64,000 bases of DNA, from positions 51,563-115,562 of the forward strand of contig JALOQK010000004.1 in NCBI GenBank assembly GCA_025453395.1. Direction: 5' to 3'. Of this stretch, positions 14,433-33,564 are shown one piece after another (within the stretch, counting starts at the first letter, position 1; each line of letters starts with the position of its first letter). The translations under genes were made by a program, and so were the position numbers. The notes under the pieces are model-generated. The model was not told the origin of the DNA. It made no database searches and saw nothing but the letters and a program-made list of their open reading frames with translations. Source of the DNA: Candidatus Omnitrophota bacterium. GTDB lineage: Bacteria; Omnitrophota; Gorgyraeia; Gygaellales; Profunditerraquicolaceae.

Positions 14433-14452
14433 TTTTCTCTCCTGTGCGCGCC

Positions 14453-16739: not shown

Positions 16740-16750
16740 ATTCCCTCCTT

Positions 16751-17461: not shown

Positions 17462-17462
17462 G

Positions 17463-19266: not shown

Positions 19267-19332
19267 CTTCTTTTTTCCCTGCTTGCGATAATGATATTAT
19301 TATATACCAAAATCCTTAACCCCATGCAAACT

Positions 19333-20625
19333 TTATTTAACGCCTAAAATATCCGCCAAATCTTTTTCCGCAGTAGTAACCAGCTTCAAATTATACTTAT
19401 CTTGAAGCAATTTCAGAACATTCGCGTTTAAGAATGCCGGAGCGCTGGGGCCAATGCGGATATTTTGGATACCTAAATAAAGCAGGCTTAAAAGTATCGC
19501 TACTGCCTTTTGTTCATACCAGGAAAGCACCATTGACAATGGCAATTGGTTCACCGAACAATTAAAAGCCTTAGATAAAGCAAGCGCTACCTGCACCGCA
19601 GAATAGGCATTATTACATTGCCCGATGTCAATTAAGCGCGGAACCCCCTCAATATCACCAAAATCAAGTTTATTGAAACGATATTTCCCGCAGGCCAAAG
19701 TTAAAATTATACAATCCTTGGGAACTTTCTGCGCGAATTCTGTGTAATAGTTTCTCCCCGGCTTGGCTCCGTCGCAACCACCGACTAAGAAGAAATGTTT
19801 TATTTTCCCGGATTTAACTAATCCCACGATTTTATCTGCAAGGCCTAATATCGCGGTATGGTGAAACCCCGTTTGTATGTTTTTCCCGGCAACTTCAGGA
19901 ATACTGCCTAATTCTAATGCCTTTTTAATCACAACAGAAAAATCTTTACGTTCTACATGCTTGGCACCCGCCATACCCACGATGCCGGAAGTAAAAAGCC
20001 TATCCAGGTATGTGCCAGAAGGCGGAATCTGGATACAGTTAGTTGTAACCAAAATTGCTCCGCCAAATTCATTAAATTCTTTTTTCTGTTCTTGCCAGGC
20101 GCCTCCAAAATTCCCCACAAGATGCTTAAACTGTTTTAATTTGGGATAACCATGCGCCGGCAACATCTCGCCATGGGTATAAATATTGACCCCTTTGCCT
20201 TCGGTTTGTTTTAAAAGTTCATAAAGATCCGGCAGGTCGTGCCCCGTTATCAAAATACCCGGGCCTTTTTTAGTCCCGGTATAGACATTCGTTGGCACGG
20301 GATTACCGAAATTATCGGTATTTGCCTTATCTAATAATTCCATGGCCTTGAAATTAATTTTCCCGCATTCTAAAACTAGAGCCAGATAATCATTCAGATC
20401 GAAATTAACATTGGTTAAGGTGGTAAAAAGCGCGCGGTGCATAAAACCATCAACTTCATCGTCTTTAAAACCCATTTCTCTGGCATGATACGCGTAAGCT
20501 GCCACGCCTTTTAAGCCAAATATTAAGGTATCCTGCAAACTTTGAATATCTTCATTCTTGCCGCATACACCTTGCTTTGTGCAACCTGTTCCAAGAGCAG
20601 TTTGTTCACATTGATAACAAAACAT
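19333..20625 (-). CDS. hcp: hybrid-cluster protein / hydroxylamine reductase (short class)
   Basis: MFCYQCEQT N-terminal cubane-cluster motif and conserved hybrid-cluster ligands. Confidence 0.9.
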   Translation of the reverse strand: MFCYQCEQTALGTGCTKQGVCGKNEDIQSLQDTLIFGLKGVAAYAYHAREMGFKDDEVDGFMHRALFTTLTNVNFDLNDYLALVLECGKINFKAMELLDKANTDNFGNPVPTNVYTGTKKGPGILITGHDLPDLYELLKQTEGKGVNIYTHGEMLPAHGYPKLKQFKHLVGNFGGAWQEQKKEFNEFGGAILVTTNCIQIPPSGTYLDRLFTSGIVGMAGAKHVERKDFSVVIKKALELGSIPEVAGKNIQTGFHHTAILGLADKIVGLVKSGKIKHFFLVGGCDGAKPGRNYYTEFAQKVPKDCIILTLACGKYRFNKLDFGDIEGVPRLIDIGQCNNAYSAVQVALALSKAFNCSVNQLPLSMVLSWYEQKAVAILLSLLYLGIQNIRIGPSAPAFLNANVLKLLQDKYNLKLVTTAEKDLADILGVK

Positions 20626-20671: not shown

Positions 20672-21076
20672 TTAATTTCCCCTTATTAATTGGGACAATC
20701 TAATGCCTTTGAGCTGCCGCCTGACATAAGATTCTATTTCCTGGATTTTCTTGCGCACAAAACAAGTCTTAGTGTTTGGGCAAGGCATTTTCTTGAAGCT
20801 GCATTCATTTAACCTAAAGGGCCCTTGAAAAACACACATCAACTTTTCTAAGGTAATATTTCTCGCGCCTGGCGTTAATTTAAACCCCCCACCTGGGCCT
20901 TTTATAGAACCAAGAAGGCCATTTCTGCATAAAACCTGGGTGATCTTTCTTAAAAATGGCCGCGGGATCCCTAGATTCTTTACCAATTCTGATACAGGAA
21001 TAATCTTTTTAGAATGACGCTGTATATATATAAGAGACCTTAATGCATAATCTGTATCGCGAGTAATTAGTTTCAT
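20672..21076 (-). CDS. Rrf2-family regulator (NsrR-like, Fe-S type) upstream of hcp
   Basis: wHTH N-terminus and a Cys triad (CVFQGPFRLNEC...CP). Only 46 nt separate it from hcp. Confidence 0.8.
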   Translation of the reverse strand: MKLITRDTDYALRSLIYIQRHSKKIIPVSELVKNLGIPRPFLRKITQVLCRNGLLGSIKGPGGGFKLTPGARNITLEKLMCVFQGPFRLNECSFKKMPCPNTKTCFVRKKIQEIESYVRRQLKGIRLSQLIRGN

Positions 21077-21262: not shown

Positions 21263-23293
21263 TTATCTTAACTTCTTCTCGAATTCCTGCGGGACTTTAT
21301 AGCCGTAGATCTTGGCCTTTTCGCAAGCCAGCCTTGCGCGGGGCAAATCTTTTTCTTGCAGATATGCGATCGCCAGATTAAAATGAAGCACTGGATAAAA
21401 CGGTTTAATGCGTAATGCCCCCTGCAAAACACTTATCGCCTCTTTCCCCTTATGCATGCTATTGTAAACATTAGCCAGATTATTATAACCCTGGATATAC
21501 TCTGGATTAGTTTCTATGGCTTTCTTAAAACAGTTAACAGCCTCTTCTTTGTTATTTAAATCAAAATAGATAGCGCCCAATTGATTGTACCCTTCAGCAA
21601 ATTTAGGATTTTGTTTTAAGGCTTGACGCAACACTGCAATAGCCTGATCAGGCTTTTTATTGGTAGAATAAAAATTTGCCAAGTCCAAATAAACACTATC
21701 CTGTAAAGGGTTGATATCTATAGATCTCTTATACGCGGCTTGCGCGTTTATGAAATCACCCGATGCTTCATAGGCTTTACCTAAAACTGCCCAGGCATTA
21801 AACAGGCCGGGGTCCAGCTTAATTGCCTGCTTTAAAGAGGCCACGGCTTTCTGCGCCTGACCAACCTTAAGCTGTATTTGGCCCAAACTCAAATAAACCT
21901 GCGGCTGATTGCTTACGGCAAGTTTAGCTGAAGCCTCCAATAAAGATACAGCCTGACTATGGAACCCCTGCCGGCTATAAACTAAAGCCAAGTTATTGCG
22001 CGCATCGGCGTAGCTAGAATTAATACGCAGAGATTTCTGAAATTCCTCTATCGCGCGTTTTACATTGCCTTGGCGCAAACAGATTACCCCGTAATTATTA
22101 AGCGCGCGGGGGCTTAGCGGAGAAGTTTCCAAGGTGCGCGTCCAGAATATTTCTTCGCTTTTCCAGTCAGTATTCCTGATTGCGGTGCGCATTAATAAAA
22201 CAACCAAAACCAGGATAAAAAAGCCTAAAATATACGGACGCTTTGATTCTTTACCCTCCAATAAGCGCGCGTAAAGGCAGGCAAAGAAAATAGAAAATGC
22301 CAACAACGGGAAATAAACATAACGTTCCGCGACAACCGAAGAAACCGGTATATGGCTATAAGTAAAGGAAAGAAAAATTATGAATATGCTCAAGGCAAAG
22401 AATAACCGCCTGGATCTTTTCCATAGCACCCAGAGAACAAATAAAAAACCAAAGGCAAATAAATACTTAAAATGCAAAATGAATTTAGGGATAAATACCG
22501 GCTCATGATAAAGAGTAAGGACTCTTGGCCAAACTAATAGCCATAAATGAGCGAAAAACGAATAAACGAAATAGACAAGCGGATTATGCACCACAAGAAC
22601 GCTTCCTGTGGTTTCCTTTGCCACAAAAGTAATCCTGTCAGCAATGAATTCTCTGGCCAAAAATATCCTTAAAGCCACGATCAAAACAAACACTATCCAC
22701 CATCTCCATCTTTCCCTATAATCCCTAAAACATATATCCCAAATCGCGATAAAGAACGGGAAAAGCGCATAAAAAGAAAAGCTGTCCAGCAAGAAATAAG
22801 TATAAAACAGAACACATAAAATATAAGTTTTTATTGCGCTGGCTTTCTTGCCTTGCCCAAGAAAAGACATAGACCTCTCGTACAAGAAGAAACTACCCAG
22901 CAAAAATATGGTCATGATTATGTATGGCCTTCCGGATATCCAAGCCACAGCTTCGCAATGCGCTGGGTGCACAGCAAAAAGGCTTGCGGCAAAAAGGCTT
23001 GGGTATAGGCCAAATAAATAGCGCAAAAATAAGAAAACCATAACTGTGGCGATAATATGAAAAACAATGCTGGTCAAGTGATAGGGAAGCGGGTTTTGTT
23101 TGAAGAAGAAATAGGTCAAGGTATGCATGGCCTGCTGGGGATTATGCCAAGCCTGCCCAAGCTCATTTATATTAGGAGAATGGTCAATGAGGACTGTCAC
23201 ATCATCAGAGATAAAGCCATTAAACAGCGTATTGGCATAAGCCAACACGCACAAAATCCCTAAAAGAGTAACCGCTCTTTTTAAATTAAACAT
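21263..23293 (-). CDS. multi-TM glycosyltransferase-like domain (PMT_2/DUF1736-like) fused to C-terminal TPR repeats (TMTC-like)
   Basis: About 370 aa of hydrophobic helices, then about 8 TPR units (YNQLGAIYFDLNNKEEA...). Confidence 0.6.
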   Translation of the reverse strand: MFNLKRAVTLLGILCVLAYANTLFNGFISDDVTVLIDHSPNINELGQAWHNPQQAMHTLTYFFFKQNPLPYHLTSIVFHIIATVMVFLFLRYLFGLYPSLFAASLFAVHPAHCEAVAWISGRPYIIMTIFLLGSFFLYERSMSFLGQGKKASAIKTYILCVLFYTYFLLDSFSFYALFPFFIAIWDICFRDYRERWRWWIVFVLIVALRIFLAREFIADRITFVAKETTGSVLVVHNPLVYFVYSFFAHLWLLVWPRVLTLYHEPVFIPKFILHFKYLFAFGFLFVLWVLWKRSRRLFFALSIFIIFLSFTYSHIPVSSVVAERYVYFPLLAFSIFFACLYARLLEGKESKRPYILGFFILVLVVLLMRTAIRNTDWKSEEIFWTRTLETSPLSPRALNNYGVICLRQGNVKRAIEEFQKSLRINSSYADARNNLALVYSRQGFHSQAVSLLEASAKLAVSNQPQVYLSLGQIQLKVGQAQKAVASLKQAIKLDPGLFNAWAVLGKAYEASGDFINAQAAYKRSIDINPLQDSVYLDLANFYSTNKKPDQAIAVLRQALKQNPKFAEGYNQLGAIYFDLNNKEEAVNCFKKAIETNPEYIQGYNNLANVYNSMHKGKEAISVLQGALRIKPFYPVLHFNLAIAYLQEKDLPRARLACEKAKIYGYKVPQEFEKKLR

Positions 23294-23306: not shown

Positions 23307-24326
23307 TTATTCGTTGAATATCCCCTTTATTATACCATTACAATAAGAACAGCGTCCGGAACTTATTTTGTTTTCTTCTACGCTAAAGCCATGCCTGAGG
23401 ATAAGTTTCTTGCCGCATGAAGGGCAAAAAGTATCTTCTCTTATCCCGCGCAGATTGCCAACATACACATACCGCAATAAAGCATCTTTCCCGATTTTAT
23501 AGGCTTTTTCCAAAGAATCTAAATCTGTTGGAGGAAGATGCGATAATTTATAGTCAGGATGAAAAGCGGATATATGCCATGGCATATCCTTGTCTACACC
23601 GGATAAAAAATCAGCAATGCCTTTTAATTGCTCCGGCGAATCGTTTTGTTTTGGAATAAGCAAAGTTGTAACCTCAACCCAAATGCCTATTTCGTGCATA
23701 AAGCGGATAGAATCCAAAACTGGCTTCAGGCGCGCGCCACAAATCTTCTGGTAAAAAGAATCATCAAAAAATTTCAAATCAACATTAGCTGCATCTAGAA
23801 ACCCCCGCGCCAGCTCTAAACAATCCCTGCTCATAAACCCGTTGGTGACAAAAAGATTATACAGCCCCTTTTTCTTAGCCAGCTTCATTATCTCTAAAGC
23901 GTACTCAAAGAAAATCGTAGGTTCAGTATAGGTATAAGAGATACTCCGGCATTCATGCTGAAGAGCCAGATCCACTATTTCACCGGGGGAAAGTTTCTTA
24001 GCTGTGGCAGGATCATTTGAATCGCGAAAATTAATCTGCGAAATCTGCCAGTTCTGGCAGAATGAACACTTAAAATTACACCCCATGGTAGCCACAGAAA
24101 AGGTCTGGGATCCGGGTAAAAAATGGAATAGGGGCTTTTTTTCCACCGGATCCACATTGGCAGCAACCACTTGATCATAGGCAAAGGTATAAAGCACGCC
24201 GGAATTATTCTGACGCATGCCGCAGATACCAAAATCTGCATCCGCGATACGGCAGTTATGGGCGCAAAGAAAACAATGCACATTATTGGAGTCTAATCTC
24301 TCATAAAGAATTGCTTCTTTTTTCAT
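23307..24326 (-). CDS. radical SAM enzyme, pyruvate-formate-lyase-activase-like (AmmeMemoRadiSam-system type)
   Basis: N-terminal CxxCxxxC..C cluster (CFLCAHNCRIADADFGICGMR), CNFKCSFCQNW radical-SAM motif and C-terminal CPSCG..CSYCNG ribbon. Confidence 0.7.
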   Translation of the reverse strand: MKKEAILYERLDSNNVHCFLCAHNCRIADADFGICGMRQNNSGVLYTFAYDQVVAANVDPVEKKPLFHFLPGSQTFSVATMGCNFKCSFCQNWQISQINFRDSNDPATAKKLSPGEIVDLALQHECRSISYTYTEPTIFFEYALEIMKLAKKKGLYNLFVTNGFMSRDCLELARGFLDAANVDLKFFDDSFYQKICGARLKPVLDSIRFMHEIGIWVEVTTLLIPKQNDSPEQLKGIADFLSGVDKDMPWHISAFHPDYKLSHLPPTDLDSLEKAYKIGKDALLRYVYVGNLRGIREDTFCPSCGKKLILRHGFSVEENKISSGRCSYCNGIIKGIFNE

Positions 24327-25327
24327 ATTTTTATCCGCGATAACGACTCTTGATCAATAGGATACACCAAGGCTTTTTCTTCTTTGCCATTAGCAACCTT
24401 TTGAAACATAATTTCTGTTTTCTTGCTCTTATCAATATCCGAATAGCGCGCCACAACAGAACAGGAAAGAGAAATCAGATTATCATCCATACCGCCGCTG
24501 CCAACGGCAGTTGGCCCGGCGGTATCCTCATCCACATAAAAAAGAAAATCTCCCGGGCGGGCCATCTTTTCTAAAGCCAGGTTCTCCTGCTGGTTTCTGC
24601 CTACGACTAACTTTGTATGGTTATTCAAGCGAAAATGCCTGCCTAATTTTAAAAGCTGAACATTTTTAGATTTAAGCTGTTTATGCGCTATTAAATCTTT
24701 GAGGCGCCGGGAAAAATCAGGATCAGTTAATAAACATCCCCCTGCTGGCTGGGCATAATCTTTGATCTTAAAATACTCTGCCAATTCCATTTGCGCCTTG
24801 CGGCTTCTGCCGTTTATGGAAAAAAGTTTTTCGCGCATGACCCATCCTTTTTCCTCAGGCAGTGTGACTGGCAATAATTTAGCGCAAAGCGGGCGCAAAA
24901 TCAAACGCTCTAACCCGGCCTTGCCCGGAATAAAATTTATCGCCTGCTTATTTTGAGACATCGGACGCTGCGATAAGACTTCCCCGGTGACCAGAAAATC
25001 AGCCTGCCCGGCCTTAAGAAGCTGTCCTGCTTTCTTAAGCATTAATATCTTACAATCAATACAAGGATTCATATTAGAACCAAACCCATGCTGCGGGTAA
25101 CGCATCATTTCTAAGAATTCTTCCTGTATATCAATCTCTTCCAAAATCCTGCCTAATTTTTGCTTAACAACCAAGGCAGTCTTGTCAAAAGTATCTTTTG
25201 ATTTCTTGGCGCTTAAGAAAGGAATAATAAATTTGACTGGAAAGACATCTATCCCCTGCTCTTTTACTACGCAAGAAGCAAGGATACTGTCTAGACCGCC
25301 AGAGATAAGCGCGATCGCCCTTTTCAT
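24323..25327 (-). CDS. MnmA/TRMU-like PP-loop ATPase (tRNA 2-thiouridylase family, divergent)
   Basis: SGGLDS PP-loop. NPCIDCK aligns with MnmA NPDILCN (catalytic Cys) and GGCLLTDP aligns with the second Cys. The start is taken at MKRAIALISGG, which forms a TAATG overlap with the feoB stop. Confidence 0.6.
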   Translation of the reverse strand: MKRAIALISGGLDSILASCVVKEQGIDVFPVKFIIPFLSAKKSKDTFDKTALVVKQKLGRILEEIDIQEEFLEMMRYPQHGFGSNMNPCIDCKILMLKKAGQLLKAGQADFLVTGEVLSQRPMSQNKQAINFIPGKAGLERLILRPLCAKLLPVTLPEEKGWVMREKLFSINGRSRKAQMELAEYFKIKDYAQPAGGCLLTDPDFSRRLKDLIAHKQLKSKNVQLLKLGRHFRLNNHTKLVVGRNQQENLALEKMARPGDFLFYVDEDTAGPTAVGSGGMDDNLISLSCSVVARYSDIDKSKKTEIMFQKVANGKEEKALVYPIDQESLSRIKI

Positions 25328-27054
25328 TATCGGATAATAATATTTAAAGTTATGCCTACGATGAAACTTGCGGAGAGCATTATAAAAGTAGCTTTGATTA
25401 AAGCCTTTATCCCCAATTCCTTCCACAAAACCATGAAAGTGGCCATACAAGGAAAAGACATCGCAAGTATAGTTGAAGAAATCAAAAGTTGCTTTGCGGA
25501 AAGCCCAAGCGGCATCAATAACCCGGCGGCGACATCTTTTCTAAAGAAACCGAATAAAAGCGCCACCACCGCTTTTTGGGGAAGGCCGAATAATCCTTCA
25601 ATAACCCAAGCAAAAATATGCTCCAAAAAATCGAACAGGTGATAGTAAATAGCCAAGTTTAAAATCAATACCCCGGCAAAAACAAGCGGCAGCGCTTCTA
25701 TAATAAAAACTTTAACCCTAAAGAAAAGTTTCTTTAAAAGAAGCAGAAGCGGAGGAAAACGGTACGGCGGGATTTCTAATAGAAATTCCGGGCTGTAACC
25801 TTTAAGAATACGGTTTAAGAACGCGCCGATTATTAGAATAACCACAAATAATATAAGGTAAACTCCTACCACATACTTTAACCCATAAGAACCCAATAAA
25901 GCAAAGATCATCGCCTGAAGCGGGACACACGGAATCCCGATAGAAATAAGAGTGGCGGCAATGAACCTTTCGCGTTTTGATTCCAGAACTCTTGTTGCCA
26001 GGATCCCTGGGACATTGCAACCAAAGCCTAAAAGCACCGGAATAATCGCAAAACCATGCAGGCCCAAACGATGCAATAGATTATCCAATAATATCGCCAA
26101 ACGCGGCAGGTATCCCGTGTCTTCAAGAATACTTAAAACAAAATAGAAAGAAACAATGTAGGGCAAAACCATGGCAAATTCAATATAGGGCGCGGTAGTC
26201 AAAAGTCCGAATGACTGCTTAAAATCAATAACACCGCCGATCATATCCCCGATAAGCAGATGATCCATTAAGCTGCCAGGCAAGATGAAAGTATGGATTT
26301 TTTCCACAACCGGCATATATAAATTATGGAAAACCGGATCCGCGACATAATTAATCAAACCCTCGCCTAAGAAACGCACTGCTTTAAAAGAAAGAAAAAT
26401 AACTCCAAGCGATATCAATGCTCCGCTAAAGGGGCGCACAGAGGCATCTTCCAAAAGCTCTCTTAGGGTATGATGACGATGGGTAAGCTTCTGCACAGCC
26501 TCAATGATACGGCCGATTTCCTGCCAACGCTGTTGGCTCTCAAGTTTAACCCGGCTGTTTGACCTTGCCTGCTCTATCCGGCTTATAAGAAATTTAATCC
26601 CCGCCCCTGTTACCGCGCAAGTAGAAATAACTGGAACCTTCAGCATTTCTTCAAGCTTCTTAACATCAATCTCTATGCCGCGATGCGCTGTATCATCGCA
26701 CATATTCAGGCAGACAATCACCTGATATCCTGCTTCAATGAGTTGCAAGGTTAAAAATAAATTCCTCTCCAGATTAGTAGCATCAACAATATTAATCACC
26801 ACGCTTTTATCAGCAGGATACTCCATAAGCATATTAACTGCTGCTTCTTCCGCTTCTGAAGAAGGCTCTAAAGAGTACGTTCCGGGTAAATCAATTACCT
26901 CAAACTTTTCCTGCCTTAATAAAAGATAACCCTTGCTAAAACCTACTGTAGTCCCCGGGTAATTAGCGGAAATAACCTGCACCCCGGTCAAACGCGAGAA
27001 AACAACGCTTTTGCCGACATTGGGGTTGCCGATTAAAAATATTTTTTCTATCAT
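25327..27054 (-). CDS. feoB: ferrous iron transporter B
   Basis: N-terminal G-domain (GNPNVGKS) plus a polytopic membrane domain. ATGA overlap with feoA. Confidence 0.9.
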   Translation of the reverse strand: MIEKIFLIGNPNVGKSVVFSRLTGVQVISANYPGTTVGFSKGYLLLRQEKFEVIDLPGTYSLEPSSEAEEAAVNMLMEYPADKSVVINIVDATNLERNLFLTLQLIEAGYQVIVCLNMCDDTAHRGIEIDVKKLEEMLKVPVISTCAVTGAGIKFLISRIEQARSNSRVKLESQQRWQEIGRIIEAVQKLTHRHHTLRELLEDASVRPFSGALISLGVIFLSFKAVRFLGEGLINYVADPVFHNLYMPVVEKIHTFILPGSLMDHLLIGDMIGGVIDFKQSFGLLTTAPYIEFAMVLPYIVSFYFVLSILEDTGYLPRLAILLDNLLHRLGLHGFAIIPVLLGFGCNVPGILATRVLESKRERFIAATLISIGIPCVPLQAMIFALLGSYGLKYVVGVYLILFVVILIIGAFLNRILKGYSPEFLLEIPPYRFPPLLLLLKKLFFRVKVFIIEALPLVFAGVLILNLAIYYHLFDFLEHIFAWVIEGLFGLPQKAVVALLFGFFRKDVAAGLLMPLGLSAKQLLISSTILAMSFPCMATFMVLWKELGIKALIKATFIMLSASFIVGITLNIIIR

Positions 27055-27284
27055 GCAAGCTCCACAATGATTTTTGCTGCCACCCCATAGCCTATGGCTA
27101 AAGTTGACCTGCCGCATTTAATCGTAACCGGGCCGCGCATAGCAAAATGGTTAAGCTTGGTTACGGTGGTGCCGGGATAAATACCCATACTCATCAAACG
27201 GCTGGCTAAATTACTCCCACCTGATATTTCCAAGATACGCGCTTTCTGATTTTCCTTAAGATGGGCCAAAGAGATCTTTTTCAT
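27051..27284 (-). CDS. feoA: ferrous iron transport protein A
   Basis: 77 aa SH3-like FeoA domain. Confidence 0.8.
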   Translation of the reverse strand: MKKISLAHLKENQKARILEISGGSNLASRLMSMGIYPGTTVTKLNHFAMRGPVTIKCGRSTLAIGYGVAAKIIVELA

Positions 27285-28024
27285 TAATGCGCGTGGGTTT
27301 TAGAAATGAGGATAAAGGCTATTCCGAGAATAAAGAATACCATGGACAAGGCACTCTTCTTAATATCCGGCTGTTTGTGCAGCTCCGGAATTAGGTCGCA
27401 TGCGGCGATATAAATAAAACCTCCGGCAGTAAAAGCCAAAAGGCCCGGAGAGAAATTTTGCGCTTGTGTGGCGATAAAATATCCGCAAACTGTCCCAATA
27501 ACACAAGTCAAAGCACTTAAGAAATTAAACATAAGCGCTTTTATCTTAGTCATCCCGCCATAAATCAAAACTCCAAAATCTCCTATTTCCTGGGGGATCT
27601 CATGCAGAATAATAACCAATGTGGTAACTATCCCGAATTTAATACTCACCAAAAAGCTTGCCCCAATAACCAAACCATCAACAAAATTATGGATGCCGTC
27701 TCCGATTAAGTTAAGATAAGTGAAAGCGTGGATGCTACAGACTCCGTCATGGCAGTGCCGCCAATGGAAATACCTTTCTAAGATAAAAAATACCACAAAC
27801 CCAAAAAGTAAATAATAGTAAGGCATATTGGTCGTGAATTCTTCCAGGGCTTCGGGCAAAAGATGCAACAGGGCTGCCCCCATTAAGCTGCCTGCTGAAA
27901 AAGCAATCAAGAGAAAAAGAATCTTATTCAGCCACTTCTCTTTAAGAAGAAGCGCAAATATCCCGATAAGAGAAATAAGGCTTACCACCGCACTTGCGCC
28001 AAGCGCCCAGAATAAATTCATCAT
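27284..28024 (-). CDS. zupT: ZIP-family divalent metal (Zn/Fe) transporter
   Basis: HEIPQEIGDF signature and 8 TM helices. Confidence 0.85.
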   Translation of the reverse strand: MMNLFWALGASAVVSLISLIGIFALLLKEKWLNKILFLLIAFSAGSLMGAALLHLLPEALEEFTTNMPYYYLLFGFVVFFILERYFHWRHCHDGVCSIHAFTYLNLIGDGIHNFVDGLVIGASFLVSIKFGIVTTLVIILHEIPQEIGDFGVLIYGGMTKIKALMFNFLSALTCVIGTVCGYFIATQAQNFSPGLLAFTAGGFIYIAACDLIPELHKQPDIKKSALSMVFFILGIAFILISKTHAH

Positions 28025-28028: not shown

Positions 28029-28373
28029 TTAACAAGCAGTAGTTATATAAATATACTTAAGCGGTTTATTAGCGATATTCTTAATATCATGGACCACGTC
28101 TTTTGGGACATAGATAAACGCCGGGGCTTTTATTTGCAAGAAGCTTTTTTGCCCATAGTAAAAACGCGCCCGGCCCTCTAAGAAAACAATTGCTTCTTCT
28201 TTGGCCGTTGTGCAATGCCTGCCCACAGACACCCCCGGAGCAAGAACTACCAAACCCGAACGAAGATTAATGCCTTTGCCCGAGTCACCCAGAAGACGCC
28301 GGTATTTCCTTAAACAAGCTACGTTTACTTTGAAAGGCTTCACCCTTTTTGTCCCATCCTTAAAATTTATCAC
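28029..28373 (-). CDS. cupin-domain protein
   Basis: 114 aa beta-barrel cupin pattern. Confidence 0.55.
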   Translation of the reverse strand: MINFKDGTKRVKPFKVNVACLRKYRRLLGDSGKGINLRSGLVVLAPGVSVGRHCTTAKEEAIVFLEGRARFYYGQKSFLQIKAPAFIYVPKDVVHDIKNIANKPLKYIYITTAC

Positions 28374-28758
28374 CCAAAGAAATCTTCCCGGGGCCTAAAA
28401 GTATAAGTGCCACACAAATGGCGATAATAATAAAATTATATTCAAACCCGCCCTGCATCATAAAAAATCCGTTTTTAAGATGCACGGTAATTGCCGCCAC
28501 CAAGATGACAATCAATAATATGCCTGCTGACAATCTGGTAAAAAGTCCCAAGATCAAAAGCGCACCACAAATAAGTTCGCTATAACCTGCTAAATACGCC
28601 CAGAAAATTCCCGGAGTAAATCCAAGGCCGGTTAACATCTTGGCAAATTTATCCATACCCGAACCACCAAACATGCCAAAAACCTTCTGGCTGCCGTGCA
28701 AAACAAACATTATCCCCAAAGAACACCTTAATACTAAGATCGCCCAATCTTGCATGGC
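28360..28758 (-). CDS. DoxX-family membrane protein
   Basis: The start is taken at MQDWAILVL, with a GGAGG RBS upstream. The 4-TM DoxX pattern is present. The ORF-track N-terminal extension runs into a conserved non-coding element. Confidence 0.75.
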   Translation of the reverse strand, partial: AMQDWAILVLRCSLGIMFVLHGSQKVFGMFGGSGMDKFAKMLTGLGFTPGIFWAYLAGYSELICGALLILGLFTRLSAGILLIVILVAAITVHLKNGFFMMQGGFEYNFIIIAICVALILLGPGKISLGDKF

Positions 28759-28838
28759 ATACCTCCTTCGCAGTAGCGAACACCGGCGCAATTTGCCGCA
28801 ATTGCGGCATACTTTGCCTTCCGATAGGCAAAGGTACA
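28759..28838 (-). repeat. conserved intercistronic dual-hairpin element, copy 1 (GTACCTTTGCC-TATCGGAA-GGCAAAGTA + GCCGCAATTGCGGC + GGTGTTCGCTACTGCGAAGGAGG)
   Basis: Its sequence and architecture (two hairpins, GGTGTTC tract, RBS) are shared with the copy at 38041-38131. It lies between the NDH-2-like stop and the doxX start. Confidence 0.55.
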
Positions 28839-29969
28839 TTATTGCCGGCTATTTAATATTAAACTTCTAAAAACCGAAAGCTTATTCCCCCACCCTACTG
28901 TGCGCCATAAGCATAAAAGGTAATGCAGGAAAATCGCTTTCCTGCCTTTTACCTTTCGCCCTAATACTATACCACAAGCAAAATTATTTGCCATGGGAAT
29001 AATATAGCCCCAATCGCGCGGCTTAAAGACAGCCTTGGGTTTATTTTCTAAGGACCGCGCAATATTAAGCGCTACGGTATGGCCTTGGGCAATGGCAAAT
29101 TGCACGGCCATGCGCAAGAAACTCTTGCCTTGGCTAAAACAAGCGCTGTCTCCAGCGGCAAAACACCCCTCTCTAAATTCTAAATAATTATCCACCATGA
29201 TTCTTCCTTGAGGATTTTTAGGAATATTCAAGGTTTGGAGATACTGTGGAGTTTTTACTCCAGCTGCCCAAATAAGCAATGACTCTTTTAAAATAGTTTT
29301 ATCAGATAAAACTAAATCCTCCCCCTCTATATTCTCAATAAAAACCCCGCAGCGTATTTCAATACTCATAATTTTTAAATTACTCGCCACATAGTCTTTC
29401 ATCCACTCTGGCAAAGGGCCTAAAATAGAACTGGCGCGCTCTAAAATAATGACGGGCTTGGATATTTTTCGCTTTTGAAGATGCAGTTTTAAATTAGTTG
29501 CTACCTCTATTCCTGTGTAACCGGCCCCAGAAATAACAAAATTCTGGAAATCCTGGGCCCAAAGGCCATCAAGGATTTTTTGCGCGTCTGCAGGAGAATC
29601 TAACTTATAGGCATAATCCCTAATCTTGTTATTGCCATAAAAGTTTGTTTCTGTGCCAGTTGCAATTACCAAATAATCATAGTTCAAATTTATATGCGCG
29701 CAATGCGCAATTTTATTTTCCAGATCTAAACTTATTACTTCCTCTTGAATAAACTGACAACCGTATTTCTTAGCCAACGACCCTATAGGAAAATAAAGTT
29801 TGCTAGTTAAGATGCCCCTTCCGATACAATCCGGCATTAAGGGCAAACAATTAAAGCTGCCCCCCTTATCGATAATTGTTACGCTTATTTTATCCCGAAA
29901 AGAAGAAAGCCGCCATGCGGTAACTGCGCCGGCATACCCACAACCGATAATAACTACTTTTTTCTTCAT
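28839..29969 (-). CDS. FAD-dependent pyridine-nucleotide-disulfide oxidoreductase (NDH-2 / sulfide:quinone oxidoreductase-like)
   Basis: GCGYAG Rossmann motif and a second nucleotide-binding GAGYTG motif. Confidence 0.65.
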   Translation of the reverse strand: MKKKVVIIGCGYAGAVTAWRLSSFRDKISVTIIDKGGSFNCLPLMPDCIGRGILTSKLYFPIGSLAKKYGCQFIQEEVISLDLENKIAHCAHINLNYDYLVIATGTETNFYGNNKIRDYAYKLDSPADAQKILDGLWAQDFQNFVISGAGYTGIEVATNLKLHLQKRKISKPVIILERASSILGPLPEWMKDYVASNLKIMSIEIRCGVFIENIEGEDLVLSDKTILKESLLIWAAGVKTPQYLQTLNIPKNPQGRIMVDNYLEFREGCFAAGDSACFSQGKSFLRMAVQFAIAQGHTVALNIARSLENKPKAVFKPRDWGYIIPMANNFACGIVLGRKVKGRKAIFLHYLLCLWRTVGWGNKLSVFRSLILNSRQ

Positions 29970-30028: not shown

Positions 30029-30955
30029 CTAAGGATTCGGGGAAAATAGCGCCGCAATTAAAATTAAGCTTACTACCGCATTGAATTTAATGGTCAAGGC
30101 TGAAGACCGCAAAAGCAGCTGCTTGCTTGCGTAGTCAACCTTTAAAATCTTTGTTGCCTTAAAAACCATGGGCAAAAATAATAAAACCGCTAAAGCGCTT
30201 ATTTTCAAATATCCTATCGCTACCGCGCAAACTATAAAGATGACAGAAAGCCCCGCAAGCGCAGCGTATAGAATAAAGGCGCGCCTTGGTTGCAGAAAAT
30301 TTACCCAAGTGTATTTTCTTGCTTCTTTGTCCTGCGGATAATCCGGCACTTCATTGGCCAAAAGAATAGCGCTTGTCAACAATCCAAAAGGAACCGACAA
30401 AAAGAATGCTTTTAATGAGGGGAAAATCCCGGTTTGCAAAAAATAACCGCCCATAACAAGCGCGGGGCCGAATAAAAAAAAGATCACGACCTCTCCTGTC
30501 TGCCTGCAGGAGAATTTTAAAGGAGGCAAAGAATACCCCGCGCCCAAAAGTGCGATGAGAATAAAAACTAAAAAAGGGAGAAAACTTTTAATGATAAAAC
30601 ACAAGCTGACAACCGAAAATAAGGCCAAGAATAAAAACACAATGGATGAAAACAGATAGAAGCTTTCGGAAAGAATTCCTTCCTGAATAAGTTTTGATCC
30701 TCCAAACAACCCATAGAATTTCTTATCTTTCCAGTCGGCTGTATTCTGGGAATCCGCGTAATCATTGATAAGATTAGCTCCCAAATGCGTAAAAATAACT
30801 GCGCATAAACCTAAAACAAAGATAACCGGATGCAAAGCCTGCCTGCTTAATAAAGAGCCGAAAACAAAAGGAAGAATGCTTGCGCCCAAAAAAGGAATTC
30901 TAAAAGCGCGCGCTAAAACTGCCAGGCCTAAAGGACTTTTTGTTTGCATTACCAT
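30029..30955 (-). CDS. UbiA-family aromatic prenyltransferase (MenA-like)
   Basis: NDYAD Asp-rich motif and 8-9 TM helices. Confidence 0.75.
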   Translation of the reverse strand: MVMQTKSPLGLAVLARAFRIPFLGASILPFVFGSLLSRQALHPVIFVLGLCAVIFTHLGANLINDYADSQNTADWKDKKFYGLFGGSKLIQEGILSESFYLFSSIVFLFLALFSVVSLCFIIKSFLPFLVFILIALLGAGYSLPPLKFSCRQTGEVVIFFLFGPALVMGGYFLQTGIFPSLKAFFLSVPFGLLTSAILLANEVPDYPQDKEARKYTWVNFLQPRRAFILYAALAGLSVIFIVCAVAIGYLKISALAVLLFLPMVFKATKILKVDYASKQLLLRSSALTIKFNAVVSLILIAALFSPNP

Positions 30956-30977
30956 ATACTTATGTTAACATAATCTG

Positions 30978-32030
30978 ATGAACTTGAAAATCAAAAATAC
31001 TATTGATAAAAGAATAAAAGAATTCCTGAATAAGGCTGACAGCTGTTATAAGATCAAGCGGCTCTCCCCTATTTTGTCAAATACCATCCGGGAATTTGTT
31101 ACGCGCGATGGAAAAAGAGTCCGCCCCATACTTTTTATTCTGGGGTACCTGGGATTCAATAAAAAAGAGGCGAAAGGACTATATGAAAGCGCTATTTCAA
31201 TAGAATTACTGCATGATTTTATGTTAGTGCATGACGACATAATTGATAAATCAGGGCTCCGCCGCGGCAAACCTTCTATGCATAAGATCTTTGACAGGCA
31301 CATAGCCGAAAATAAAAATATAAAATTTAGCGGGCAAGATTTAGCGATTGTCGCAGGAGATGTAATGTACGCAATGGGCTTGGCCTCTTTTTTGTCTATT
31401 GATGTAGCCAAAGACAAAAAGGAAAAAGCCATGCGTAAGCTCATTGAAGCCGCAATTAATACTGGAAGCGGAGAATTCTTAGAGCTTATGTTAGCGGCCA
31501 AGGATATAAGCAAGATTAAAAAAGAGCAGATCTACCAGGTCTATGATTACAAAACTGCCTGTTACACCTTTGCCTCTCCTCTTGCCATAGGCGCGATCCT
31601 TGCGGGAGCGAATAACCAAGAAGCGCAAAAACTTTATGACTACGGCATATACCTGGGCAGGGCCTTCCAGATCAAAGACGACATTTTAGGGATGTTCTCC
31701 AGCGAAGAGGAAACCGGCAAGCCCCTGATATCAGACTTACAAGAATCCAAAAGAACGCTTCTTATGTGGCATGCCTATCAAATGGGGACTTTTGTACAAA
31801 AAAAATATATAAAGAAAGTCTTATCTGGAGAAAAAATCGGGATGCGCGAATTAAAACTTACCCAGGATATACTTATTTCTTCAGGCTCACTTGCCAAAAC
31901 AAAAGAAGATATTGTTTATTACGCTTCTTGCGCTAAGAAATCACTCTCAAACTCAAAAATCTCACCTGAAATTAAAGATTACCTCGACCAATACTCAAGC
32001 CTTATCCTTAATATCCAACCGGACAAATAA
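30978..32030 (+). CDS. polyprenyl diphosphate synthase (GGPP synthase-like)
   Basis: FARM motif LVHDDIID and SARM motif KDDILG. Confidence 0.85.
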   Translation: MNLKIKNTIDKRIKEFLNKADSCYKIKRLSPILSNTIREFVTRDGKRVRPILFILGYLGFNKKEAKGLYESAISIELLHDFMLVHDDIIDKSGLRRGKPSMHKIFDRHIAENKNIKFSGQDLAIVAGDVMYAMGLASFLSIDVAKDKKEKAMRKLIEAAINTGSGEFLELMLAAKDISKIKKEQIYQVYDYKTACYTFASPLAIGAILAGANNQEAQKLYDYGIYLGRAFQIKDDILGMFSSEEETGKPLISDLQESKRTLLMWHAYQMGTFVQKKYIKKVLSGEKIGMRELKLTQDILISSGSLAKTKEDIVYYASCAKKSLSNSKISPEIKDYLDQYSSLILNIQPDK

Positions 32031-32898: not shown

Positions 32899-33187
32899 CC
32901 TTTCTCTTAAAGAATTCCCAGAAAATAATGGTCAAACTTACCATACTAAAACCAAACAGGAAATCCTCAAGCGGAATACTGCCCAGCCTGATACCTAAAA
33001 ATGCTTCCTGGGAATACAAGACAATGTGCCGGGCGGTAAGATAGCCATTAACCACAAGCTTAAAAATGAAAATAATCAATAAAAACAGATAGAAAATTTT
33101 CTTTTTCAGGATATTTATCTTTAGGTAATTATCCAAAAATAGCACCAAAAGAATAGATATTGAGCATAAGAATGTGTATTCGCGCAT
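32876..33187 (-). CDS. lycopene cyclase domain protein (heterodimeric CrtYc/d-type subunit)
   Basis: About 100 aa, 3 TM helices and a PLED motif. Confidence 0.6.
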   Translation of the reverse strand: MREYTFLCSISILLVLFLDNYLKINILKKKIFYLFLLIIFIFKLVVNGYLTARHIVLYSQEAFLGIRLGSIPLEDFLFGFSMVSLTIIFWEFFKRKDAGYVKK

Positions 33188-33190
33188 AGC

Positions 33191-33499: not shown

Positions 33500-33564
33500 A
33501 GTTACATTGTAAGTTTAAAACAAAGCATTGGCAAGCGCTTAATTTTTAGGTTAAAATATACCCT

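What the first reader, a model, noticed from the sequence alone, without database searches (positions are those of the whole stretch)
24323..27284. Translationally coupled feoA-feoB-(MnmA-like PP-loop)-(PFL-activase-like radical SAM) operon
The feoB stop and the PP-loop start share TAATG. The PP-loop stop and the radical SAM start overlap by 4 nt. feoA and feoB overlap by ATGA. A tRNA-2-thiouridylase-like ATPase (SGGLDS, catalytic Cys aligned to the MnmA NPDILCN) is hard-wired to an AmmeMemoRadiSam-type radical SAM enzyme and to ferrous iron import. I do not know this as a described arrangement. It suggests an iron-dependent thiolation or sulfur-insertion step, either a tRNA or a small-molecule modification, that is co-regulated with iron uptake. 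The whole unit follows doxX-cupin-ZIP and is preceded by the conserved dual-hairpin leader.
Basis: partly seen in the sequence, partly recalled or inferred. Interest (0 to 1): 0.55.

Follow-up and report, generated by a model that had tools for sequence, protein, structure and literature searches.

The report
Iron-uptake operon with RNA-thiolase and radical-SAM pair
In an uncultured Omnitrophota bacterium, iron and zinc-type importer genes are fused into one tightly packed operon with a predicted iron-sulfur RNA-thiolating enzyme and an orphan radical SAM enzyme; the pairing recurs in about 14 lineages and hints that two uncharacterised predicted RNA-modification systems work together.

Summary
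On the minus strand, ZIP, feoA, feoB, a PP-loop gene and a radical SAM gene follow each other with 1- or 4-nt start/stop overlaps. The radical SAM gene (23307-24326) lies just outside the stated coordinates.

The radical SAM enzyme is a true AmmeMemoRadiSam-family member (TIGR04337, 325 bits against a cut-off of 220). The PP-loop protein is not MnmA (about 23 bits against cut-offs of 237-284). [quoted passage not shown] It has an invariant CXXC+C motif, as in [4Fe-4S]-dependent thiolases.

The PP-loop to rSAM pair recurs in 21 loci (14 lineages, PP-loop identity down to 45%), all in one mostly Omnitrophota clade. FeoB (12 loci) or ZIP (6 loci) sits directly upstream. The pair is absent from 61 relatives in other phyla, which sit in ThiS/ThiF/JAB sulfur-relay contexts.

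No AMMECR1 or Memo gene is in the window. Independently, Memo lies divergently next to the same PP-loop family in anammox Brocadiales.

Best reading: an iron-linked operon carrying two Fe-S enzymes that probably act in one RNA-modification pathway. This rests on gene neighbourhood only. New variant of known kinds; moderate interest.

The parts
28745..28838 (-). 5' leader of the doxX-to-TPR gene string, with two hairpins (28812-28833 and 28785-28806). A second copy of the leader lies at about 38030-38126.
   Evidence: Inverted repeats. RNA fold -38.2 kcal/mol, z = -1.9. Repeated hairpin with 0.04 expected by chance. Alignment of the two copies shows hairpin 2 kept through different sequence. 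No Rfam match.
28360..28755 (-). DoxX-family membrane protein. The likely start is the internal ATG at 28755; JGI calls the start at 28710.
   Evidence: PF07681, 78 bits; gene call.
28029..28373 (-). Small cupin protein.
   Evidence: PF07883, 35.9 bits.
27284..28024 (-). ZIP-family divalent-metal importer (ZupT-like). Its stop overlaps the feoA start (TAATG).
   Evidence: PF02535, 163 bits. Sequence. ZIP lies upstream of the PP-loop gene or of feoAB in most linked loci.
27051..27284 (-). feoA.
   Evidence: PF04023, 70 bits. ATGA overlap with feoB.
25327..27054 (-). feoB, ferrous iron transporter (G domain plus membrane gate domains).
   Evidence: TIGR00437, 362 bits against a cut-off of 316. 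PF02421, PF07670 and PF07664.
24323..25327 (-). ThiI-like PP-loop ATPase fused to a C-terminal NFACT-R_2 RNA-binding domain (334 aa). Motifs: SGGLDS (9-14), Cys89-x-x-Cys92 and Cys198 (CXXC+C), GEVxxQRPMSQ, GRSRKAQ. Predicted [4Fe-4S]-dependent RNA thiolase.
   Evidence: PF02568 38.5 bits and PF18297 71 bits; MnmA models far below cut-off. Invariant residues in alignments of 40 and 94 sequences. AF2 model pLDDT 94.8. Fold matches to ThiI, MnmA, [4Fe-4S]-LarE and TtuA (N-terminal domain) and to RqcH/FBPS NFACT-R (C-terminal domain).
23307..24326 (-). AmmeMemoRadiSam-family radical SAM enzyme (339 aa). N-terminal CxxCxxxC...C motif, CNFKCSFCQN radical SAM motif, C-terminal CxxC...CxxC ribbon. 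Its start overlaps the PP-loop stop (ATGA).
   Evidence: TIGR04337, 325 bits against a cut-off of 220. All family motifs shared with Memo/AMMECR1-linked homologues. Directly downstream of the PP-loop gene in 21 loci.
21263..23293 (-). Polytopic membrane protein with C-terminal TPR repeats, 13 nt after the rSAM gene. Probably the last gene of the transcription unit. It is specific to this genome's version of the operon.
   Evidence: ORF and Pfam TPR hits. No terminator-like site between 23307 and 23293. A promoter-like site follows it at 21251-21224. Absent downstream of the rSAM gene in the other linked loci.
20672..21076 (-). Rrf2-family regulator with a C-x6-C-x5-C cluster-binding motif. A candidate Fe-S-sensing regulator of the region (context, not shown to regulate the operon).
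   Evidence: PF02082 93 bits; TIGR00738 85 bits against a cut-off of 73. Rrf2 homologues of 48-56% identity lie 2-5 kb downstream of the rSAM gene in L011, L024, L089, L090, L092, L111, L113, L122 and L124.

Best explanation
This is a conserved Omnitrophota operon that joins divalent-metal import (ZIP, FeoA, FeoB) to two iron-sulfur enzymes made by translational coupling.

[quoted passage not shown] The proposed mechanism is as follows. The NFACT-R domain holds a structured RNA, most likely tRNA. The PP-loop adenylates a uridine carbonyl with ATP. A [4Fe-4S] cluster held by Cys89, Cys92 and Cys198 presents hydrosulfide on its free iron to replace the oxygen. The product is a thiouridine, 4-thiouridine by family prediction.

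Enzyme 2 is an AmmeMemoRadiSam-family radical SAM enzyme. It probably acts in the same RNA-modification pathway, either on the same RNA or on the thiolated nucleoside. In this clade the thiolase has taken the neighbourhood position usually held by Memo and AMMECR1. Placing both enzymes behind the iron importers ties their synthesis to iron supply.

Shown: gene order and overlaps, family assignments, invariant motifs, a high-confidence two-domain fold, recurrence of the pair and of the transporter link, and absence of Memo and AMMECR1 from the window.

Inferred: cluster binding, the RNA substrate and s4U product, iron-responsive regulation, and that the two enzymes share a pathway.
For: Operon and coupling:
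- Overlaps of 1 and 4 nt run from ZIP to rSAM, with no internal terminator-like site of note.

Family of enzyme 1:
- ThiI PF02568 plus NFACT-R_2 PF18297. It is not MnmA.
- SGGLDS, Cys89, Cys92, Cys198, R121, Q125 and GRxRxxQ are invariant in 94 homologues.
- The same CXXC+C motif binds the catalytic [4Fe-4S] cluster in archaeal TtuI (PMC9825150).
- The AF2 model has pLDDT 94.8. It matches ThiI, MnmA, [4Fe-4S]-LarE and TtuA, and RqcH NFACT-R.
- NFACT-R contacts rRNA helix 38 in RqcH (bioRxiv 10.1101/2020.09.03.281279).
- Unlinked relatives are flanked by ThiS-like carriers, ThiF E1, JAB, NifU and HcyBio, with a separate real MnmA gene. This fits a sulfurtransferase.

Family of enzyme 2:
- TIGR04337 at 325 bits against a cut-off of 220.
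- 47-48% identical to rSAMs that sit in canonical rSAM-Memo-AMMECR1 operons (L160, L162, L164).
- All family motifs are kept.

Pairing:
- The rSAM gene is directly downstream of the PP-loop gene in 21 loci. These are 14 lineages below 70% identity, with pairwise identity down to 45% and different flanks.
- All linked proteins fall in one clade.

Independent second link:
- Memo, named 'AmmeMemoRadiSam system protein B' by NCBI (PF01875, about 250 bits), lies divergently adjacent to the same PP-loop family in Brocadia, Scalindua and Loosdrechtia. The other neighbours differ between these genera.

Iron link:
- FeoB is directly upstream of the PP-loop gene in 12 of 21 linked loci and ZIP in 6 of 21.
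- In other Omnitrophota-like contigs the rSAM gene precedes (Fur)-FeoA-FeoB in a different gene order.

Prior predictions:
- AMMECR1 and its rSAM were predicted to perform an RNA base modification (PMC2034487).
- AMMECR1 neighbours NFACT genes in archaea (PMC4075521).
Against: - All evidence for a shared pathway is gene neighbourhood. Only two independent lineages support it (an Omnitrophota clade and Brocadiales), and the Brocadiales pair is divergently transcribed.
- 61 of the PP-loop loci with enough downstream sequence lack the rSAM gene. Most close rSAM relatives (about 70 of 80) lack the PP-loop gene and instead sit next to Nth, a PncA-like gene, Thi4 or FeoAB. Neither enzyme therefore needs the other in general.
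- The whole region is a redox, iron and Fe-S gene island (Hcp, SufBC-like, desulfoferrodoxin, flavodiiron protein, rubredoxin, Rrf2). Shared regulation alone could explain the clustering.
- No member of either family has a demonstrated activity in the literature I could search.
- Whether Memo and AMMECR1 exist elsewhere in this genome is unknown.
- No Fur or other regulator site was identified for this operon.
Confidence: 0.5

Rival explanations
1. Co-regulation only. The thiolase and the radical SAM enzyme are unrelated Fe-S client enzymes that, in this phylum, have been gathered into an iron/Fe-S-regulated transporter operon. They share a regulator and an iron supply but not a substrate or pathway.
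For: - The rSAM gene is found next to FeoAB, Fur, DtxR-like and Rrf2 genes without the PP-loop gene (L122, L130, L150, L157, L165).
- The PP-loop gene is found between ZIP and Fur-FeoB without the rSAM gene (L027).
- The wider region is an iron and redox island.
- Most rSAM relatives and most PP-loop relatives lack each other.
Against: - The two genes are immediately adjacent, often overlapping, in 14 lineages, while everything around them changes.
- A different member of the same three-gene system (Memo) neighbours the same PP-loop family in an unrelated phylum that has no Feo genes nearby.
Confidence: 0.33
2. Small-molecule chemistry. The PP-loop enzyme acts like LarE and inserts sulfur into a cofactor or metal-binding metabolite. 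The radical SAM enzyme tailors that product, and the product is linked to metal uptake through ZIP and Feo.
For: - The best local structural superpositions of the PP-loop domain are with [4Fe-4S]-LarE (rmsd 3.8-5.0 A, TM 0.46-0.49 on the target).
- The operon is embedded among metal transporters, a cupin and DoxX.
Against: - The C-terminal domain is an NFACT-R RNA-binding domain.
- The family was assigned to RNA thiolation on phyletic grounds.
- One homologue is fused to methionyl-tRNA formyltransferase.
- Cupin and DoxX are specific to this genome's version of the operon.
- No carrier, exporter or scaffold genes for a metabolite are conserved.
Confidence: 0.1
3. Ordinary MnmA next to an unrelated radical SAM gene by chance.
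For: JGI annotates many family members as 'tRNA U34 2-thiouridine synthase MnmA/TrmU'. There is weak PF03054 similarity over residues 3-118.
Against: - MnmA models score 22-24 bits against cut-offs of 237-284.
- The C-terminal MnmA domains are replaced by NFACT-R_2.
- Genuine MnmA genes occur as separate genes beside family members.
- The pairing recurs in 14 lineages.
Confidence: 0.02

Closest known systems
ThiI+DUF814 (ThiI-like PP-loop + NFACT-R_2) family, predicted alternative tRNA 4-thiouridine synthase (Burroughs and Aravind 2014, PMC4075521)
   Same: Same two-domain architecture, CXXC plus internal Cys, GRxRxxQ loop motif, and conserved arginines in the NFACT-R domain. The window protein is a member.
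   Different: The 2014 paper reports TusA (with IscS in some genomes) as the only conserved neighbour. Here there is no TusA. The conserved neighbours are an AmmeMemoRadiSam rSAM and the FeoAB/ZIP importers. No TusA motif was seen in the 80 closest genome loci either.
[4Fe-4S]-dependent tRNA U8 sulfurase TtuI (ThiI) of Methanococcus and Pyrococcus (PMC9825150)
   Same: ThiI-type PP-loop domain without a rhodanese domain. A CXXC+C motif is proposed to hold a [4Fe-4S] cluster that delivers sulfide to the adenylated uridine.
   Different: TtuI uses an N-terminal THUMP/NFLD module to bind tRNA, whereas this protein has a C-terminal NFACT-R_2 domain. The ThiI equivalog model scores 39 bits against a cut-off of 264. 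Cluster binding is not shown here.
MnmA (tRNA 2-thiouridine-34 synthase), including the Fe-S-dependent 'C-type'
   Same: PP-loop SGGxDS. NPC-x-x-C aligns with the MnmA catalytic region. The Cys89/Cys92/Cys198 spacing parallels Asp99/Cys102/Cys199 of E. coli MnmA (my own knowledge).
   Different: The protein fails the MnmA models by more than 200 bits and lacks the MnmA central and C-terminal domains. Real MnmA genes coexist with family members.
AmmeMemoRadiSam system (TIGR04335 AMMECR1, TIGR04336 Memo, TIGR04337 radical SAM)
   Same: The rSAM passes the TIGR04337 cut-off. It shares all motifs with, and is 47-48% identical to, rSAMs in canonical rSAM-Memo-AMMECR1 operons.
   Different: No AMMECR1 or Memo gene lies in the 64-kb window or beside any Omnitrophota-like rSAM examined. 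A PP-loop thiolase and iron importers are the neighbours instead.
TtuA/TtuB/TtuC-type thiolation with ubiquitin-like sulfur carriers
   Same: Relatives of the PP-loop protein are flanked by ThiS-like, ThiF and JAB genes. Three-Cys [4Fe-4S] chemistry is expected.
   Different: No carrier or E1 gene lies in this operon. The domain architecture is different.
QueC/QueE (a PP-loop ATPase paired with a radical SAM enzyme in 7-deazaguanine synthesis)
   Same: A precedent for an adjacent PP-loop and radical SAM pair working in one nucleobase-modification pathway (my own knowledge).
   Different: Different subfamilies: QueE models score 17 bits against cut-offs of 206-260. QueC acts on a free base and has no RNA-binding domain.

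Membership tests
MnmA / TrmU | Full-length match to the equivalog models TIGR00420 and NF001138 above their cut-offs | tested here: not met
   21.9 and 23.8 bits against cut-offs of 237 and 284. The match covers only residues 3-121. PF03054 scores 19.9 bits against a gathering score of 20.6.
MnmA / TrmU | Central and C-terminal MnmA tRNA-binding domains after the PP-loop domain | tested here: not met
   The C-terminal 105 residues are NFACT-R_2 (PF18297, 71 bits). The fold matches RqcH/FBPS NFACT-R.
Canonical ThiI / TtuI | ThiI-type PP-loop domain (PF02568) | tested here: met
   38.5 bits against a gathering score of 20.5. Fold hits to 4kr6 and 2c5s.
Canonical ThiI / TtuI | N-terminal THUMP domain (and a rhodanese domain in the E. 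coli class); TIGR00342 cut-off | tested here: not met
   No THUMP or rhodanese hit. TIGR00342 scores 38.8 bits against a cut-off of 264.5, matching only model positions 174-313.
ThiI+DUF814 (PP-loop + NFACT-R_2) family | ThiI-like PP-loop at the N-terminus fused to NFACT-R_2 at the C-terminus | tested here: met
   PF02568 over residues 3-148 and PF18297 over residues 229-329. The same two Pfam domains are precomputed for all 120 top homologues. The AF2 model shows two domains.
ThiI+DUF814 (PP-loop + NFACT-R_2) family | CxxC plus an internal Cys; GRxRxxQ, TxxE and Gln motifs in the enlarged loop; two conserved Arg in the NFACT-R domain (PMC4075521) | tested here: met
   C89, C92, C198, G173, R176, Q179, R121 and Q125 are invariant. 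T155, E158, R230 and R244 are at least 90% conserved. The cysteines are invariant in 94 sequences.
ThiI+DUF814 (PP-loop + NFACT-R_2) family | Conserved neighbourhood with TusA (and IscS in some genomes) | tested here: not met
   No TusA-like CPxP ORF lies in the operon or near the 80 closest genome loci. This is a contextual trait, not a defining trait of the protein.
ThiI+DUF814 (PP-loop + NFACT-R_2) family | Mutually exclusive phyletic pattern with THUMP-ThiI; 4-thiouridine synthase activity | not testable with these tools
   Only 64 kb of the genome is available, and there is no biochemical test.
[4Fe-4S]-dependent PP-loop thiolases (TtuA, TtuI, NcsA, C-type MnmA, LarE-FeS) | Three clustered Cys (CXXC+C) in the active site beside the PP-loop | tested here: met
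   Motif present and invariant. The motif is defined in PMC9825150. The fold matches 8cnz, 5mkp and 5b4f. Inter-cysteine distances in the model could not be measured because no coordinates were available.
[4Fe-4S]-dependent PP-loop thiolases (TtuA, TtuI, NcsA, C-type MnmA, LarE-FeS) | Actual binding of a [4Fe-4S] cluster | not testable with these tools
   Needs anaerobic reconstitution and spectroscopy.
AmmeMemoRadiSam system | Radical SAM enzyme scoring above the TIGR04337 cut-off, with the CxxxCxxC motif | tested here: met
   325.1 bits against a cut-off of 220, covering model positions 4-334 of 349. CNFKCSFC and the N- and C-terminal Cys motifs are shared with the canonical members.
AmmeMemoRadiSam system | AMMECR1 (protein A) and Memo (protein B) genes adjacent or fused | tested here: not met
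   HMMs built from Pfam-confirmed Memo and AMMECR1 genes of L160-L164 find nothing in the six-frame translation of the window, nor in the flanks of the Omnitrophota-like rSAM loci. The motif grep and Pfam scan of candidates were also negative. Presence elsewhere in the genome is untested.
Glycyl-radical enzyme activases (PFL-AE) | Match to TIGR02493 or TIGR02494 above cut-off; a glycyl-radical enzyme partner | tested here: not met
   50.1 and 46.9 bits against cut-offs of 232 and 174. PDB PFL-AE hits only at E = 3e-5. No glycyl-radical enzyme gene is nearby.
FeoAB ferrous iron transporter | FeoB with G domain, gate domains and FeoB_C above the TIGR00437 cut-off; FeoA upstream | tested here: met
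   TIGR00437 scores 362 bits against a cut-off of 316. PF02421, PF07670, PF07664 and PF04023 are all present.

The most novel reading that the evidence does not exclude
The ThiI-NFACT-R thiolase and the AmmeMemoRadiSam enzymes (radical SAM, Memo, AMMECR1) are parts of one RNA-modification pathway. The pathway would build or process a thiolated, possibly hypermodified, nucleoside. In Omnitrophota it would be wired to iron availability through ZIP and FeoAB. If true, this would give the first concrete substrate class (a thiouridine in structured RNA) for the long-orphan MEMO1/AMMECR1 families.
Probability: 0.25. Interest if true: 0.8.

Novelty: new variant of a known kind. Interest (0 to 1): 0.55.

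Why it matters
AMMECR1 and MEMO1 are conserved from archaea to humans and are linked to human disease. Their biochemical function, and that of their prokaryotic radical SAM partner, is still unknown. Published predictions point vaguely to RNA-base or isoprenoid modification.

The ThiI-NFACT-R family is a second orphan: it is widely distributed and has only a predicted role. This work finds a recurrent, translationally coupled pairing of the orphan radical SAM enzyme with this predicted RNA thiolase. It also finds an independent Memo-thiolase adjacency in anammox bacteria.

Together these give a specific and cheap experiment. Co-express the pair, and look for s4U and its derivatives in RNA. The locus also suggests that some anaerobes tie RNA thiolation to iron import, in the way iron-responsive tRNA modifications are known to work in model bacteria.

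If the link is only regulatory, the locus is an ordinary iron/Fe-S operon with mis-annotated genes. Public annotations variously call the PP-loop protein MnmA, ThiI or QueC.

Tried and rejected
- **Standard MnmA:** rejected by model scores and domain content.
- **PFL-activase or other named rSAM families (MoaA, QueE, NrdG, viperin):** all far below their cut-offs.
- **Sequence search of the PP-loop protein against the PDB:** only marginal hits (E of 0.1 or worse). The fold search was needed instead.
- **Two paralogues in one Omnitrophota MAG (P0079 and P0120 of SM23_72):** this would have suggested a duplicated, specialised copy. Both sit in the same ZIP-FeoAB-PPloop-rSAM context. They look like two strains in one bin, so there is no evidence of paralogy.
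- **Riboswitch or known RNA in the leader or the operon:** no Rfam match at E up to 1.
- **Leader motif in related loci:** found only in the same genome (one search used a wrong spacer length).
- **TusA neighbour expected from the 2014 paper:** not found by motif in 80 loci.
- **AMMECR1 or Memo in the window:** not found by motif, by Pfam on ten candidate ORFs, or by custom HMMs.
- **Fusion proteins linking the PP-loop to rSAM, Memo or AMMECR1 among long homologues:** none. P0234 is fused to Fmt and P0209 to a HAD domain.
- **Promoter and terminator scans:** counts are no better than shuffles, so they are uninformative.
- **Burroughs et al. 2019 (JBC; PMC6664185) on Memo gene contexts:** could not be retrieved. 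I cannot exclude that a PP-loop/Memo association is already mentioned there.

Full report
**1. What is in the sequence**

The finding lies on the minus strand of a window that is identical to a 122-kb contig of a Candidatus Omnitrophota MAG. Reading 5' to 3' on that strand, the genes are:
- a pyridine-nucleotide-disulfide oxidoreductase (28839-29969)
- an approximately 85-nt leader with two hairpins
- doxX (28360-28755)
- a small cupin (28029-28373)
- a ZIP transporter (27284-28024)
- feoA (27051-27284)
- feoB (25327-27054)
- a PP-loop gene (24323-25327)
- a radical SAM gene (23307-24326)
- a membrane/TPR protein (21263-23293)
- after a promoter-like site, an Rrf2 regulator and the hybrid-cluster protein gene

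ZIP/feoA is also TAATG. JGI's independent gene calls give the same boundaries. The radical SAM gene lies outside the coordinates given. Overlaps of 1 and 4 nt are the normal signature of an operon, not an oddity.

**2. What the proteins are**

FeoA and FeoB are orthodox. FeoB scores 362 bits on TIGR00437 against a cut-off of 316.

The radical SAM enzyme is a clear member of TIGR04337, the 'AmmeMemoRadiSam system radical SAM enzyme' (325 bits, cut-off 220). Its resemblance to pyruvate formate-lyase activase is distant (50 bits against 232; PDB E = 3e-5).

The PP-loop protein is not MnmA:
- The MnmA equivalogs score 22-24 bits against cut-offs of 237-284.
- PF03054 is just below its gathering score.
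- The significant domains are ThiI (PF02568, residues 3-148) and NFACT-R_2 (PF18297, residues 229-329).

Burroughs and Aravind (2014, PMC4075521) described this fusion as ThiI+DUF814. They predicted it to be an alternative tRNA 4-thiouridine synthase. Their grounds were its near-exclusive phyletic pattern with THUMP-ThiI, retention of the PP-loop and CxxC+Cys residues, and a TusA neighbourhood.

The family is large. About 900 clusters at 50% identity match at E below 1e-30.

In an alignment of 40 diverse members, and again in 94 members, several residues are invariant: SGGLDS, Cys89, Cys92, Cys198, Arg121, Gln125 and the GRxRxxQ loop. The CXXC+C arrangement is the one shown to carry the catalytic [4Fe-4S] cluster in archaeal TtuI (PMC9825150). 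From my own knowledge, the spacing parallels Asp99/Cys102/Cys199 of E. coli MnmA and the three-Cys site of the Fe-S 'C-type' MnmA and of TtuA.

An AlphaFold2 model built on the alignment is confident (pLDDT 94.8, pTM 0.89). Foldseek matches the following:
- the C-terminal domain to the NFACT-R domain of RqcH and FBPS;
- the N-terminal domain to ThiI, MnmA, [4Fe-4S]-LarE and TtuA.

In RqcH the NFACT-R domain contacts 23S rRNA helix 38, so an RNA substrate is plausible.

No experimental study of this family was found. Public annotations are inconsistent: ThiI, MnmA and QueC are all used.

**3. Is the pairing conserved?**

*Search from the PP-loop side.* I scanned one genome per species with a profile of the PP-loop family and kept the 80 best loci, which come from many phyla.
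- An rSAM of the same family lies immediately downstream only in a subset of Omnitrophota.
- It is absent from 61 loci that have enough downstream sequence.

*Search from the rSAM side.* A scan of metagenome contigs with the rSAM protein gave 80 relatives at 47-60% identity.
- About ten have the PP-loop gene directly upstream.
- The rest are flanked by endonuclease III, a PncA-like isochorismatase, Thi4 or other genes.

*Combined result.* With look-ups of individual homologues there are 21 full linked loci, plus two truncated ones.
- They collapse to 14 lineages at below 70% PP-loop identity, with pairwise identities down to 45%.
- The genes outside the core differ between lineages.
- In a neighbour-joining tree all linked proteins fall in one large, mostly Omnitrophota clade. 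A few unlinked members are interspersed.
- A second Omnitrophota clade and all other phyla are unlinked.
- The stop-to-start distance between the two genes ranges from -4 to about 76 nt.

The pair is therefore an old, retained feature of one clade. It is not a general property of either family.

**4. The metal-transport link**

Among the 21 linked loci:
- FeoB lies directly upstream of the PP-loop gene in 12.
- ZIP lies directly upstream in 6. ZIP also precedes feoAB in most of the FeoB cases.
- Neither is present in 3.

One unlinked Omnitrophota locus has ZIP-PPloop-Fur-FeoB without the rSAM gene (L027).

In other Omnitrophota-like contigs the rSAM gene stands upstream of (Fur)-FeoA-FeoB. This is a different gene order and cannot derive from the first by deletion (L130, L150, L157, L165, L122).

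Rrf2 regulators 48-56% identical to the window's lie a few kb downstream in many of these loci. The window's Rrf2 has a C-x6-C-x5-C motif.

No regulator binding site or expression data were tested.

**5. What the unlinked relatives say about function**

Where the PP-loop gene is not next to the rSAM gene, it is flanked by the following:
- ThiS-like carriers, some fused to ThiF or to a PLP enzyme
- a ThiF-type E1
- a JAB peptidase
- NifU
- the HcyBio sulfur-incorporation enzyme
- CysK
- PAPS reductase
- a separate, genuine MnmA

This is the kind of context seen for TtuA/TtuB-type thiolation. It supports a sulfurtransferase role for the family.

The window has the same NifU/HcyBio/second-PP-loop/CysK/Rrf2 cluster 15 kb away, at 6181-10263.

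**6. Where are Memo and AMMECR1?**

At 47-48% identity to the window's rSAM, the metagenome set contains canonical rSAM-Memo-AMMECR1 operons (L160, L162/L163, L164). These were confirmed with Pfam. The window's rSAM shares every conserved motif with them.

HMMs built from those Memo and AMMECR1 genes gave three results:
- Nothing in the six-frame translation of the 64-kb window.
- Nothing beside the Omnitrophota-like rSAMs.
- Unexpectedly, Memo (PF01875, about 250 bits) directly and divergently upstream of the ThiI-NFACT-R gene in the anammox bacteria Brocadia (L054, L064) and Scalindua (L029, L043, L044, L046).

NCBI names this protein 'AmmeMemoRadiSam system protein B'. A further look-up found the same divergent pair in Loosdrechtia but not in Kuenenia. 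The other neighbours differ between Brocadia and Scalindua.

Two different components of the same three-gene system thus neighbour the same PP-loop family in two unrelated phyla.

As a rough, inferential estimate:
- The chance that a given gene abuts one of three specified genes in a genome of a few thousand genes is of the order of 0.002-0.004.
- About 20 independent lineages were sampled.
- Two such events are then expected with a probability of the order of 1e-3.
- This is not a formal test.

Earlier work had already connected AMMECR1 and its rSAM with an unknown RNA base modification (PMC2034487), and AMMECR1 with NFACT genes in archaea. From memory, the abstract of Burroughs et al. 2019 (JBC) links Memo contexts to 'nucleotide base and aliphatic isoprenoid modification'. 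I could not read that paper.

**7. Most likely mechanism**

Shown:
- a co-transcribed, translationally coupled string from ZIP to the rSAM gene;
- the family identities;
- the invariant ATP-binding and three-Cys motifs;
- the two-domain fold;
- the recurrence of the pair and of the transporter link.

Inferred:
- The PP-loop enzyme binds a structured RNA through NFACT-R and adenylates a uridine.
- It replaces the oxygen with sulfur delivered by a [4Fe-4S] cluster. The sulfur source would be free sulfide or a thiocarboxylated carrier encoded elsewhere.
- The rSAM enzyme acts in the same pathway.
- The operon couples production of both Fe-S enzymes to iron import, probably under an Fe-S- or iron-sensing regulator.

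I put about 0.5 on the full statement including a shared pathway. I put about 0.33 on the weaker reading that the two enzymes are merely co-regulated Fe-S clients, about 0.1 on a LarE-like small-molecule role, and about 0.02 on 'ordinary MnmA by chance'.

**8. Novelty and verdict**

Each component belongs to a known or previously predicted family. What is new, as far as the searchable literature shows, is threefold:
- the conserved pairing of ThiI-NFACT-R with the AmmeMemoRadiSam radical SAM enzyme;
- its attachment to ZIP and FeoAB;
- the independent Memo adjacency in Brocadiales.

I class it as a new variant of a known kind, with moderate interest (0.55). It is a neighbourhood-based lead that makes the function of two orphan families experimentally approachable. 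It is not a demonstrated new system.

Noticed in passing
window 28745-28838 and about 38030-38126 (minus strand): Two copies of a structured 5' leader. One is upstream of doxX and the other is upstream of a TrpB-like gene (36630-37973). Hairpin 1 has identical arms (CTTTGCCT / AGGCAAAG). Hairpin 2 differs in sequence but still pairs (GCCGCAATTGCGGC versus GCCCCTTTCTGGGGC). A conserved GGTGTTC..TTACT..GAA stretch follows, before the start codon. No Rfam match. It could be a cis-regulatory RNA or a regulator operator.
   Followed up: partly
window 6181-10263 (minus strand): Sulfur-metabolism cluster: a second PP-loop ATPase (283 aa; weak QueC/ATP_bind_3 hits, LarE-like size), a NIL-like 135-aa protein, an HcyBio-type 400-aa protein, a NifU-like protein, a CysK-like protein and a second Rrf2. 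In another Omnitrophota genome (L034), NifU-, HcyBio-, NIL- and second-PP-loop homologues directly follow the ThiI-NFACT-R gene.
   Followed up: partly
L054, L064, L029, L043, L044, L046 (about 5750-8060 in each; 675-2766 in L064); L172 3786-5804: In the anammox Brocadiales (Brocadia, Scalindua, Loosdrechtia), a Memo gene ('AmmeMemoRadiSam system protein B') is divergently adjacent to the ThiI-NFACT-R gene. This is not so in Kuenenia (L171) or Anammoxibacter (L056). In Brocadia and Loosdrechtia a TPR protein follows the PP-loop gene.
   Followed up: partly
L130 3810-7485; L150 2532-7278; L157 183-2973; L165; L122 5001-8639: A second recurrent architecture for the same rSAM family: TrxR-like, endonuclease III, rSAM, (Fur), FeoA, FeoB. 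In L122 it is followed by DtxR-like and Rrf2 regulators.
   Followed up: partly
L010 4382-6287; L094 1392-3303; L122 6668-8639; L157 2449-3820: In several lineages FeoB is split into a separate G-domain ORF (about 165-180 aa) and a membrane ORF.
   Followed up: no
protein P0234 (604 aa); P0209 (519 aa): A ThiI-NFACT-R homologue is fused at its C-terminus to methionyl-tRNA formyltransferase domains (Formyl_trans_N and Formyl_trans_C). Another is fused at its N-terminus to a HAD hydrolase domain. The Fmt fusion, if it is not a gene-call artefact, is a further hint of a tRNA substrate.
   Followed up: no
window 13284-20625 (minus strand): A dense oxidative-stress and Fe-S block: a TrxR-like flavoprotein, a PNPOx-like protein, a flavodiiron protein, desulfoferrodoxin, a NAD-binding oxidoreductase, SufBD- and SufC-like proteins, and the hybrid-cluster protein. 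Homologues of the TrxR-like and PNPOx-like genes also travel with the rSAM gene in other contigs (L122, L150).
   Followed up: no
window 30029-36609: An isoprenoid and carotenoid-type cluster directly upstream of the operon: UbiA prenyltransferase, polyprenyl synthase, two lycopene-cyclase-domain proteins, squalene/phytoene synthase, LytB and an amine-oxidase/desaturase-like protein. This is of note only because Memo contexts have been linked (from memory of a 2019 abstract) to isoprenoid modification. No conservation with the rSAM gene was seen in other loci.
   Followed up: no
L112 852-1637 and 4025-5176: One contig carries two rSAM paralogues of this family 2.4 kb apart. The second has a twin-arginine-like N-terminal signal (MKIFNNKLTRRDFLKKG...).
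   Followed up: no
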